NCBI GenBank assembly: GCA_032249095.1
Contig: JAVVGN010000035.1
Location: forward strand, 1 to 19,896
Direction of reading: 5' to 3'
DNA: 19,896 nt
From: Candidatus Caldarchaeales archaeon
GTDB lineage: Archaea; Thermoproteota; Nitrososphaeria_A; Caldarchaeales; Calditenuaceae
This document shows positions 664 through 1,066 of this stretch, in pieces. Made by a program: the position numbers and the translations under genes. The notes beneath the pieces were generated by a model that saw only the letters and a program-made list of their open reading frames with translations, was not told the origin of the DNA and ran no database searches. Position 1 is the first letter of the stretch. Each line of letters starts with the position of its first letter.

Positions 664-685
664 CTACTACACCTCCTCGTTCAGT

Positions 686-1066
686 GTCTTTATCTCGTAT
701 GGCCTCGCAACCATGTTGAAACTCTCCACCATCCCACTCCAACCCACCGGCCCCGCATATAAAGAGTAGTGGCCCCAACAGCCGGGCCACCTCTAACCTA
801 GACTCACTATGCTCAAGAGAACTACTGCCAAGATAAATAAAGACCTCAAAGGGACTAATACTGCCAAGAGAAATCTACTATACACTAACAAACATTAAGG
901 GCTTAGAGAAGGAGATAGGAGCAGTAAAAAGGAGAAATCTAAACCAAGAAACATACTAGGCGTAGAAGAACACGGAAACATCCCAACACAGCTAGACCTA
1001 TGGGGAAACGAGGTAATATTCAAGGGAAAGGGACAAACAACGTTGTATGGTTACATAACAGCTTGA
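686..1066 (+). repeat. Repeat family copy 1 (diverged copy, directly upstream of the LAGLIDADG gene)
   Basis: Aligns with 4895-5239 from GTCTTTATCT(C/A)GTATGGCC through CTCTCCACCATCCCACTCCA, CCACCGGCCCC.CATATAA.GAGTAGTGGCCCC and CTCACTATGCTCAAG to ...GGAAACGAGGTAATATTCAAGGGAAAGGGACAAACAACG. Relative to copy 2 it has a 29-nt gap, a 72-nt insertion, and 3-nt and 1-nt indels. Confidence 0.85.

What the first reader, a model, noticed from the sequence alone, without database searches (positions are those of the whole stretch)
664..731. The same promoter-bearing module sits at the same spacing in front of two unrelated mobility genes
On the minus strand, GGCCATAC(G/T)AGATAAAGAC (704-686 and 4913-4895) contains a TATA-like AGATAAAG. 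It ends 24 nt before the GTG of the LAGLIDADG gene (663) and 26 nt before the TTG of the IS110-like gene (4870). Weaker similarity continues to the start codons (GAGGAGGTGTAG vs ATAGGTGGTGCAG). From the first codon the two proteins are unrelated (VRRYLPRELRIKLYN... vs MKFYADVHRS...). One conserved intergenic module, with the small repeat ORF diverging on the other strand, is therefore coupled to two different DNA-cutting or recombining enzymes, as if the mobility gene were an exchangeable cassette. The solo copy 3 lacks exactly this leftmost module.
Basis: seen in the sequence. Interest (0 to 1): 0.7.

Follow-up and report, generated by a model that had tools for sequence, protein, structure and literature searches.

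The report
Mobile element with swappable targeting genes
The repeated 70-base "module" is the leftover tail of a conserved upstream gene that, in hot-spring archaea, is followed interchangeably by an IS110/TasR-like enzyme with its own guide RNA or by a LAGLIDADG endonuclease, so one family of mobile elements appears to swap its DNA-targeting machinery.

Summary
GGCCATAC(G/T)AGATAAAGAC occurs twice on the minus strand (686-704, 4895-4913), against none in 200 shuffles. It lies 22 and 24 nt before the starts of a LAGLIDADG gene and a frameshifted 276-aa-family gene.

A metagenome scan found the module 75 more times. It always lay at this spacing before one of three gene classes: IS-A (40), LAGLIDADG (19) and IS-B (13). 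Three further copies were deletion derivatives.

The module did not originate as a promoter. It is the last ~20 codons of a conserved upstream gene, ORF1 (150-167 aa), plus a translational-coupling junction. AGATAAAG encodes Glu-Ile-Lys. In the window ORF1 is deleted down to this stub.

The full unit is B gene (divergent) – ORF1 – ORF2 – 3' end.
- IS-A and IS-B are homologous. Their fold matches IS621/ISCro4 bridge recombinases and TasR.
- Both carry a 3' structured RNA. Its two variable loops match the DNA flanking the whole unit.
- LAGLIDADG versions lack the RNA and end exactly at the 3' ends of eight different tRNA genes.
- ORF1 sequences do not sort by ORF2 class.

The "exchangeable cassette" idea is therefore supported. 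Mechanism and the roles of ORF1 and B remain inferred.

The parts
1..663 (-). LAGLIDADG-class ORF2, 5' 221 codons. The gene runs off the contig start; the full gene is 296 aa in the near-identical contig L003.
   Evidence: Pfam LAGLIDADG_3 E 2.5e-14 and full length E 1.8e-16. The family has 676 clusters. In L003 the stop is followed 10 nt later by a convergent tRNA-Val.
664..733 (-). Module copy 1: relic of the last ~20 codons of ORF1 (…VESFNMVARPYEIKTLNEEV*, stop TAG 669-667) plus the 3-nt spacer before the GTG start.
   Evidence: In-frame translation and alignment to intact ORF1 copies. 19-mer statistics.
744..1066 (+). B-gene relic, copy 1. It is divergent and frameshifted but keeps the canonical middle part (…LILPREIYYTLTNIKGLEKEIG…).
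   Evidence: The B family has 77 clusters, typically ~98 aa.
3839..3924 (-). 3' terminal region of the IS-A-class element, with the C-rich box AACCAACCCCCCACTCTTTCCC (3869-3891). The right end near 3839 is approximate.
   Evidence: Pairwise extent of similarity to other IS-A loci and alignment of 3' regions. The box is shared with IS-B, deletion derivatives and, in variant form, LAGLIDADG elements.
3925..4055 (-). Guide-RNA-like structured region: closing helix P1, hairpin P2, variable loop V1 (TCCCTCATTTTAAT), hairpin P3, variable loop V2 (TCTATTTTTATAAT). This copy is partly decayed.
   Evidence: The same architecture folds independently in four subfamilies with different stem sequences, z -3.2 to -6.3; the window copy gives z -2.2. 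V loops match flanks in other loci.
3979..4870 (-). IS-A-class ORF2 (IS110/TasR-like), inactivated. A frameshift near 4262-4341 splits it into 202- and 120-aa ORFs, and the normal stop is lost.
   Evidence: Intact relatives are 276 aa and 80-90% identical. The AF2 model (pLDDT 95.7) best matches IS621/ISCro4 and TasR.
4871..4941 (-). Module copy 2: ORF1 3' relic (…VERFHMLTWPY*, with GAG changed to TAG) plus the junction to the TTG start.
4942..5239 (+). B-gene relic, copy 2. Its 5' part is 'A2' (4942-5047). It has a 72-nt internal deletion and a frameshift relative to canonical B.
6768..7052 (+). Solo B-gene relic, copy 3. It is identical to copy 2 over 4977-5228 and has no ORF1 stub and no ORF2.

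Best explanation
The window carries three decayed copies of a multi-copy mobile element family of Ca. Caldarchaeales.

Layout of the intact element: a small divergent gene B (~98 aa); a conserved gene ORF1 (150-167 aa); an ORF2 that starts at or within 3 nt of the ORF1 stop, which suggests translational coupling; and a 3' terminal region with a C-rich box.

ORF2 is one of at least three alternatives:
- IS-A and IS-B are two distant homologues with the fold of IS110-type bridge recombinases and TasR. Each is followed by a structured RNA. Its two unpaired variable loops match, on opposite strands, the DNA on the left and right of the whole B-ORF1-ORF2-RNA unit. This is RNA-guided site choice of the bridge/seek/tig RNA kind.
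- The third alternative is a free-standing HTH-LAGLIDADG endonuclease with no RNA. Its elements end precisely at the 3' end of a convergent tRNA gene.

The finding's 'module' is the 3' end of ORF1 plus the ORF1/ORF2 junction. It looks intergenic in the window only because ORF1 has been deleted down to this stub in both copies.

Shown: the anatomy, the three ORF2 classes, the fold, the RNA architecture, the loop-flank matches, the tRNA adjacency, and the mixing of ORF1 lineages across ORF2 classes.

Inferred:
- ORF2 (with its RNA where present) determines where the element inserts.
- ORF2 cassettes are exchanged by recombination between the shared left arm (B/ORF1) and the shared 3' box.
- The stub is retained because ORF2 expression needs it.

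The roles of ORF1 and B are unknown.
For: Module is the ORF1 tail:
- Intact ORF1 of at least 148 in-frame codons ends in the module in 22 or more loci, with conserved protein sequence.
- Variability by codon position is 312/271/571 over 231 nt and 27/6/52 within the module.
- L013 ORF1 (5501-6004) overlaps ORF2 (6001-6831) by 4 nt.

Three ORF2 classes at fixed spacing: 40 IS-A, 19 LAGLIDADG, 13 IS-B and 3 deletion derivatives among 75 independent matches.

Shared left arm:
- Upstream similarity is shared by more loci than any ORF2 (coverage ~60 vs 45/18/11).
- Nested ORF1 deletions (444, 414, 240, 131 and 13 nt remaining) all keep the 3' end.
- The same B|stub junction occurs with all three classes.

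Exchange:
- ORF1 nearest neighbours cross classes: IS-B to IS-A in 4 of 5 at 92-97% identity, LAGLIDADG to IS-A in 3 of 7 at 92-94%.
- L014 has intact ORF1, then the first ~22 codons of IS-B, then a LAGLIDADG gene.

IS-A/IS-B identity:
- hhalign gives probability 99.1, E 1e-18.
- The family profile hits TasR at E 1.8e-6.
- Foldseek on the pLDDT 95.7 model gives ISCro4/IS621 as the top 11 hits, E 6e-8 to 4e-6, TM 0.57-0.65.

RNA:
- The same P1[P2-V1-P3-V2] fold appears in four subfamilies with different stems.
- The right junction equals the reverse complement of a V loop in L010 (9 nt), L032/L076 (11), L064 (10), L031 (11) and L023 (11).
- The left junction equals a V loop read forward in L032/L076 (9), L064 (7), L071 (11), L075/L024 (10) and L036 (12).
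- Own-locus matches of 9 nt or more occur in 7/24 cases against 27/552 cross-locus controls.

tRNA: 13 of 16 LAGLIDADG loci with enough sequence have a convergent tRNA, 8 different tRNA genes in all. In most the junction is …AACTAATA|tRNA 3' end. In L035 (tRNA-Asp) the tRNA lies ~370 nt beyond the LAGLIDADG stop and lacks this junction. Among about 45 IS-A/IS-B loci the only tRNA call is one implausible ~570-nt tRNA-Gly in L029.
Against: - The window's own IS-A copy shows no loop-flank match, and its RNA helix P1 is weakened. The RNA-guided reading therefore rests on relatives.
- No Ser is invariant in the C-terminal domain of the family alignment. The catalytic Ser of IS621 is recalled from memory. 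Recombinase chemistry is thus unproven, and the protein may be a nuclease like TasR.
- Only one tandem-loop unit is evident, whereas bridge RNAs have two.
- Left ends are heterogeneous, and no terminal repeats or target duplications were defined.
- ORF1, B and the IS-A/IS-B proteins match no curated family above its threshold; only 4 of 26 family members give a weak, sub-threshold PF01548 hit.
- An alternative left arm exists in some loci: a 64-aa gene and a B116-like gene before ORF1. The 'unit' is therefore not uniform.
- All data are metagenomic. No transcript, protein or transposition data exist.
- The sampling was conditioned on the module pattern, so ORF1-less or module-divergent relatives were not seen.
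Confidence: 0.7

Rival explanations
1. One reading: the module is a self-contained archaeal promoter plus ribosome-binding cassette. It is reused in front of different mobility genes, and transcription starts about 25 nt after AGATAAAG to give near-leaderless mRNAs.
For: - The A/T-rich octamer lies 22-27 nt before each start codon.
- A GGAGGTG-like motif precedes the starts.
- Every ORF1 deletion variant retains at least this ~60-70 nt, as expected if it is needed in cis for ORF2 expression.
Against: - In intact elements the segment is in-frame coding sequence with third-position variation.
- Its stop overlaps or abuts the ORF2 start.
- GATAAAGA is a poor fit to archaeal TATA consensus (own knowledge).
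- No promoter tool for archaea was available.
- The two readings do not exclude each other, since a promoter can lie inside ORF1.
Confidence: 0.2
2. B-ORF1 is a resident multi-copy unit, and the three ORF2 genes are independent selfish invaders. An RNA-guided IS and a homing endonuclease gene would each insert site-specifically just after the ORF1 stop codon.
For: - The junction lies within about 10 nt of the ORF1 stop in all classes.
- IS110-type elements and homing endonuclease genes are both known for precise site choice (PMC11187229; own knowledge).
Against: - None of 75 module copies has an empty slot.
- V-loop matches lie outside B and ORF1, at the outer borders of the whole unit, not at the ORF1/ORF2 junction.
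- 4-nt start/stop overlaps indicate an operon.
- LAGLIDADG elements have their specific junction at the tRNA side, not at ORF1.
Confidence: 0.08
3. The module is the recombination end (left end) of an IS recognised by the transposase. The LAGLIDADG gene merely captured one IS end.
For: The first pairwise comparisons suggested that similarity between the window and L013 starts ~70 nt before the start codon. Copy 3 stops at the same point.
Against: That 'boundary' is a deletion junction. In L013 and most loci the similarity continues 400-600 nt further upstream through ORF1. Guide-flank matches place the true left border beyond B.
Confidence: 0.02

Closest known systems
IS1111/IS110 insertion sequences with seekRNA / bridge RNA (IS621, ISCro4, ISEc11)
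   Same: - The protein fold is the best PDB match to the IS-A model over its full length.
- Conserved acidic residues sit at RuvC-like positions, with a K-S/T-D-x-x-D-A motif.
- A non-coding structured RNA lies downstream of the gene, as in IS1111 (PMC11187229).
[quoted passage not shown]
- Closely related copies with different guides sit in different sites.
   Different: - There are no significant Pfam PF01548/PF02371 hits (best E 0.0098 in 4 of 26 relatives).
- The protein is shorter (276 aa).
- No Ser is invariant in the C-terminal domain.
- Only one tandem-guide loop is evident.
- The mobile unit carries two extra conserved genes (B, ORF1) upstream, and ORF2 is coupled to ORF1.
- The recombinase-plus-RNA block is replaceable by a LAGLIDADG gene.
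TIGR-Tas systems (TasR, RuvC-Nop RNA-guided nuclease; PMC12045711)
   Same: - TasR is the best sequence-profile hit in the PDB (9mty_A, E 1.8e-6) and a strong fold hit (E 8e-6).
- The guide has two ~9-11-nt spacers separated by a hairpin and closed by a helix.
- The two spacers address opposite strands of adjacent DNA.
   Different: - There is a single guide unit embedded in a mobile element rather than a tandem array of 36-nt units.
- An extra hairpin (P2) is present.
- The host is an archaeon.
- The guides match the element's own insertion flanks.
Two-gene IS200/IS605 and IS607 elements (TnpA plus the RNA-guided nuclease TnpB)
   Same: A small upstream gene is followed by an RNA-guided RuvC-type protein with a 3' guide RNA at the element end. 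This offers a conceptual precedent for a nuclease acting as a homing or retention module of a transposon (PMC13565253 title; own knowledge).
   Different: - ORF1 shows no detectable similarity to Y1 or serine-recombinase TnpA. The only hint is 3ilx at E 0.65, which is not significant.
- The guide is internal with two loops, not a read-out of the flank.
- ORF2 is not TnpB.
Free-standing homing endonuclease genes (e.g. phage seg/mob genes, intein-type LAGLIDADG enzymes)
   Same: - LAGLIDADG_3 domain.
- Similarity to intein endonuclease domains and to PDB 2dch.
- Multi-copy, and often decayed.
   Different: - It is not in an intron or intein.
- It has an N-terminal HTH.
- It always lies behind ORF1.
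- The element border lies at the 3' end of many different tRNA genes rather than in one cognate gene.

Membership tests
IS110/IS1111 family (RNA-guided DEDD recombinases) | N-terminal RuvC-like DEDD domain, coiled coil and C-terminal Tnp domain (overall fold) | tested here: met
   The AF2 model has pLDDT 95.7. The Foldseek top 11 hits are ISCro4/IS621, E 6e-8 to 4e-6, TM 0.57-0.65, ~312 aligned columns. D6, D48 and D93 are near-invariant.
IS110/IS1111 family (RNA-guided DEDD recombinases) | Sequence-profile membership (Pfam PF01548 DEDD_Tnp_IS110 and PF02371 Transposase_20) | tested here: not met
   There is no hit for the window protein or P0002. PF01548 appears only weakly, best E 0.0098 and below cut-off, in 4 of 26 distant relatives. 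PF02371 does not appear.
IS110/IS1111 family (RNA-guided DEDD recombinases) | Conserved catalytic Ser in the C-terminal domain | tested here: inconclusive
   No Ser column is invariant or near-invariant in the 26-sequence family alignment. However, no residue-level superposition on IS621 was possible, and the identity of the catalytic Ser is from memory.
IS110/IS1111 family (RNA-guided DEDD recombinases) | Element-encoded non-coding RNA whose loops match the target flanks on both strands | tested here: met
   For relatives: structure; matches of 9-12 nt at right and left borders in 8 independent insertions. This is not met for the window's own decayed copy.
IS110/IS1111 family (RNA-guided DEDD recombinases) | Second (donor-binding) loop matching the element ends; circular intermediate | not tested
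   Only one variable tandem loop was recognised. The conserved region downstream of P1 was not analysed for donor pairing, and circles cannot be seen in assemblies.
TIGR-Tas | Nop-domain protein fused to a RuvC nuclease | tested here: met
   The profile hits 9mty_A at E 1.8e-6 and TasH at 4e-5. Foldseek gives 9mty at E 8e-6, TM 0.61.
TIGR-Tas | Tandem array of many short repeat-spacer units processed to 36-nt tigRNAs | tested here: not met
   There is one ~120-nt unit per element and no array.
LAGLIDADG homing endonuclease genes | LAGLIDADG domain | tested here: met
   PF14528 E 1.8e-16 with two stretches; PADLOC HEase; PDB 2dch E 3e-5.
LAGLIDADG homing endonuclease genes | Residence in an intron or intein, or next to one cognate target gene | tested here: not met
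   The gene is free-standing, always downstream of ORF1, and next to 8 different tRNA genes.
Archaeal promoter element (TATA/BRE) as the identity of the module | Non-coding A/T-rich box about 25 nt upstream of a mapped transcription start | not testable with these tools
   The sequence is coding in intact elements. No 5'-end data and no archaeal promoter model were available.

The most novel reading that the evidence does not exclude
B-ORF1 is the core of a previously undescribed kind of archaeal mobile element. Its insertion specificity is supplied by a plug-in module. The module is either an RNA-guided IS110/TasR-like enzyme with a single tandem-spacer guide, or a protein-guided LAGLIDADG endonuclease that recognises the conserved 3' end of tRNA genes. 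The two modules would be functionally interchangeable and swapped by recombination. The IS-A/IS-B clade would also be a deep archaeal branch between IS110 recombinases, TasR and Nop5.
Probability: 0.35. Interest if true: 0.9.

Novelty: new variant of a known kind. Interest (0 to 1): 0.8.

Why it matters
If correct, this gives a natural example in which an RNA-guided DNA-targeting module and a protein-guided homing endonuclease are alternative, exchangeable parts of one mobile element. That makes directly testable how mobile elements acquire and trade target specificity.

It would add three things:
- A very divergent, compact (276 aa) archaeal relative of bridge recombinases and TasR, with a simple single-unit guide RNA whose loops can be read against natural insertion sites. 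This bears on the proposed IS110-TIGR-Nop5 evolutionary link (10.1101/2024.06.21.599552; PMC12045711) and on genome-editing tool discovery.
- A LAGLIDADG lineage that sits precisely at the 3' ends of many tRNA genes.
- Two conserved small proteins (ORF1, B) of unknown function that travel with both.

For annotation, it explains why assemblies of these hot-spring archaea break at these repeats, and why the window's copies look like "promoter modules".

Tried and rejected
- Two genome-contig scans (repeat pattern; protein P0002) found nothing, so no complete-genome survey was possible.
- Rfam found no family in the window at gathering threshold, and only noise at E up to 10 in 3800-5300. ARAGORN found no tRNA in the window.
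- Pfam, NCBIfam, PHROGs and PADLOC gave nothing above threshold for ORF1, B or the 64-aa gene, and for IS-A/IS-B only the weak PF01548 hits noted above.
- The first AF2 model of IS-A, from a shallow alignment, was poor (pLDDT 59). I replaced it with a deeper alignment.
The PDB profile search for ORF1 gave only E 0.65 to 3ilx.
- My first reading was that the module is the left end of a ~1.1-kb IS. I rejected it once upstream regions of many loci were aligned.
- A search for flanking direct repeats or partial tRNA duplications around LAGLIDADG elements found none.
- I looked for V1-V2 mutual pairing and for loop matches in the window's own flanks and found none.
- An apparent short inverted motif (TTAGTT/AACTAA) at element ends was too weak and heterogeneous to call.
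- A 24-nt repeat near 3690 could not be traced in the loci with my pattern.

Full report
**1. The observation**

On the minus strand, GGCCATACGAGATAAAGAC (704-686) and GGCCATACTAGATAAAGAC (4913-4895) are the only matches in the window with up to one mismatch. None occurred in 200 dinucleotide-preserving shuffles. The similarity extends over 667-744 vs 4876-4953, at 77%. The 19-mer ends 22 nt before the GTG at 663 and 24 nt before the TTG at 4870.

Downstream, window 1-663(-) is a LAGLIDADG_3 protein. Window 4262-4870(-) belongs to a family of more than 900 protein clusters, typically 276 aa, with no Pfam or NCBIfam match. The window copy is frameshifted.

Both modules are the left edge of a ~300-400-nt repeat. 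A third copy (6768-7052) lacks the module.

The window is a whole 19,896-nt contig of an NCBI Ca. Caldarchaeales MAG (row P0219). Contigs from other samples show the same arrangement.

**2. Generality**

I scanned public metagenome contigs for TTCNAC-N10-GGCCATACNAGATANAGAC and found 75 matches in 73 loci. The classes of the gene that follows are listed below.

| Class | Loci | Notes |
|---|---|---|
| IS-A (the 276-aa family) | 40 | Start 22-26 nt after the pattern |
| LAGLIDADG | 19 | Same spacing; two (L014/L022) carry an extra ~275 nt before the gene |
| IS-B | 13 | 'VSRVFIDFGRNRVYALPEDGEE…KTDENDVKAL…', 263-292 aa |
| Deletion derivative | 3 | Module fused to the last 26 codons of a P0120-type IS-A gene |

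**3. What the module is**

I aligned the upstream regions of many loci. The conserved sequence does not stop ~70 nt before the start codon. It continues for 400-600 nt and is shared by more loci than any single ORF2.

It is a gene. L013:5501-6004 encodes 167 aa and overlaps the IS-A start by 4 nt. In 22 or more loci, at least 148 in-frame codons end in '…LEREQVERFHIVARPYEIKT…'.

The module is the last ~20 codons of this gene, which I call ORF1, plus the junction:
- IS-A: …TAT TGA overlapping TTG.
- IS-B: …GAG TGA overlapping GTG.
- LAGLIDADG: TAG, 3 nt, then GTG.

Variation across 40 distinct copies falls on third codon positions: 312/271/571 overall and 27/6/52 within the module. AGATAAAG is GAG-ATA-AAG (Glu-Ile-Lys). 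The G/T difference between the window copies turns Glu into a stop.

ORF1 occurs in nested deletion forms, with 444, 414, 240, 131 or 13 nt left before the pattern. The window has the shortest form in both copies.

On the other side lies gene B, divergent from ORF1. It is a real ~98-aa family of 77 clusters. The 'A2' part of the repeat is its 5' coding region. All three window copies are degenerate: copies 2 and 3 carry a 72-nt deletion and frameshift, and copy 1 a frameshift.

ORF1 and B match nothing in Pfam, NCBIfam, PHROGs, PADLOC or the PDB. Some loci have a different left context, a 64-aa gene and a STIV_B116-like gene before ORF1.

**4. What the ORF2 genes are**

A profile search of 1.8 billion representatives gave diverse relatives of IS-A. 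Their alignment shows near-invariant D6, D24, D48, K88, D93 and G217, and a K-S/T-D-E-N-D-A motif.

- This profile aligns with IS-B at probability 99.1, E 1e-18.
- It hits TasR (9mty_A, deposited as 'Transposase IS116/IS110/IS902 C-terminal domain-containing protein') at E 1.8e-6, and TasH at 4e-5.
- Pfam DEDD_Tnp_IS110 appears only weakly, in 4 of 26 members.
- With the deeper alignment, AlphaFold gave pLDDT 95.7. Foldseek then returned ISCro4 and IS621 bridge recombinases as the top 11 PDB hits (E 6e-8 to 4e-6, TM 0.57-0.65, full length), followed by TasR.

'IS110-like' is thus right at fold level. Profile membership is not met, and no conserved Ser was seen, so recombinase chemistry remains open.

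The LAGLIDADG protein has an HTH followed by LAGLIDADG_3. It resembles intein-type endonuclease domains and belongs to a family of 676 clusters.

**5. The 3' RNA and the borders of the element**

After IS-A and IS-B, and in the deletion derivatives, lies a conserved ~120-nt region. It has two hypervariable stretches, V1 and V2, each followed by YTTWTAAT in IS-A.

Representative sequences from four subfamilies have different stem sequences. Each nevertheless folds on its own into the same shape: closing helix P1, long hairpin P2, unpaired V1, hairpin P3, unpaired V2. The z-scores run from -3.2 to -6.3.

The loops match the flanking DNA.

| Border | Relation to loop | Loci (match length, nt) |
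|---|---|---|
| Right | Reverse complement of a V loop | L010 (9), L032/L076 (11), L064 (10), L031 (11), L023 (11) |
| Left, beyond B | V loop read forward | L032/L076 (9), L064 (7), L071 (11), L075/L024 (10), L036 (12) |

- L010, L032 and L064 share ~60 nt of element end, but the adjoining flank changes in step with V1.
- In an agnostic test, own-locus matches of 9 nt or more occurred in 7/24 cases against 27/552 cross-locus controls.
- This is the tandem-spacer logic described for seekRNA/bridge RNA and tigRNA (PMC11187229; PMC12045711). The RNA lies downstream of the gene, as in IS1111.
- It also shows that the inserted unit is the whole B-ORF1-ORF2-RNA block, so the module is internal and not an element end.
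- The window's copy has a weakened P1 (z -2.2) and no loop-flank match. That is consistent with a decayed copy, but it means the window itself does not demonstrate guidance.

**6. The LAGLIDADG class**

These elements have no RNA. They keep a variant of the C-rich box found near the end of IS-A/IS-B elements: ACCCCTCCCCCAACCATTTCCC against AACCCCTCCCCCACTCTTTCC.

In most loci they end in …AATAACTAATA directly at the 3' end of a convergent tRNA gene. The tRNAs are Val, Arg, Leu, Thr, Gly, Asn and Lys; a tRNA-Asp (L035) lies ~370 nt beyond the gene without this junction. This holds in 13 of 16 loci with enough sequence. Among about 45 IS-A/IS-B loci the only tRNA call is one implausible ~570-nt tRNA-Gly in L029.

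In L003, the near-identical extension of the window, tRNA-Val starts 10 nt after the stop. It lies just beyond window position 1.

**7. Exchange**

- ORF1 3' sequences do not cluster by ORF2 class. IS-B-linked copies have IS-A-linked nearest neighbours at 92-97% identity, and 3 of 7 LAGLIDADG-linked copies do so at 92-94%.
- The same B|stub deletion junction is found with all three classes.
- L014 is a chimera: intact ORF1, then the first ~22 codons of IS-B, then a LAGLIDADG gene.

I infer recurrent replacement of the ORF2 block between a shared left arm and a shared 3' box.

**8. Verdict**

The 'exchangeable cassette' idea is supported. The 'promoter-bearing intergenic module' is better explained as an ORF1 tail with a coupling junction, although an internal promoter is not excluded.

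The closest known systems are IS1111/IS110 elements and TIGR-Tas. The differences are the two extra conserved genes, the single-unit guide, the lack of profile membership, and above all the replacement of the RNA-guided block by a tRNA-associated LAGLIDADG gene.

I found no description of such elements in the searched literature.

The mechanism of insertion, the chemistry of IS-A/IS-B and the roles of ORF1 and B are inferences that await experiments.

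Noticed in passing
window 3925-4055 (-), and L010, L013, L031, L032, L064 3' regions: A structured RNA-like region lies after the IS-A gene. It has two hypervariable loops. In relatives, these loops equal the DNA on either side of the whole element, on opposite strands.
   Followed up: yes
L003:20261-20333 (just beyond window position 1); L020, L039, L056, L065, L085, L014, L035: LAGLIDADG-class elements end next to convergent tRNA genes (eight different tRNAs). 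In most, the …AACTAATA end directly abuts the tRNA 3' end; in L035 the tRNA-Asp lies ~370 nt away.
   Followed up: yes
window 4262-4341 and ~4050: The IS-A gene of the window is broken by a frameshift. A 1-nt deletion also removes its normal stop, so the annotated ORFs (202 and 120 aa) are fragments of a 276-aa gene.
   Followed up: partly
L013:4632-5497, L014:466-660: In some loci ORF1 is preceded, in the same orientation, by a 64-aa gene, a STIV_B116-like gene and a 99-aa gene whose product resembles the ORF1 N-terminus. This suggests a larger virus- or plasmid-like relative of the element.
   Followed up: no
L010:4791-5714: An IS1595-type DDE transposase gene sits where gene B would be. About 470-495 nt upstream of the module, inside it, lies TCCAGAC…AAAAGCCTC. 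This resembles both guide loops of the neighbouring element, 12 nt apart.
   Followed up: no
L001, L002, L004-L009 (ends of contigs): Public assemblies of this population break inside the B/ORF1 repeat, so copy numbers and contexts are under-sampled in short-read data.
   Followed up: no
window 3690-3713 and 19858-19881: A 24-nt direct repeat (TTTGTGTTGGTGGGTTTAGGGTTT / TTTGTGTTGGTGTTTATAGGTTTT, 83%) is present. A similar string lies to the right of the element in L049. Its meaning is unknown.
   Followed up: partly
window 6668-6767: The solo B relic (copy 3) ends 96 nt upstream of the triosephosphate isomerase gene start (6671, minus strand). Whether it contributes to that gene's promoter was not examined.
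   Followed up: no
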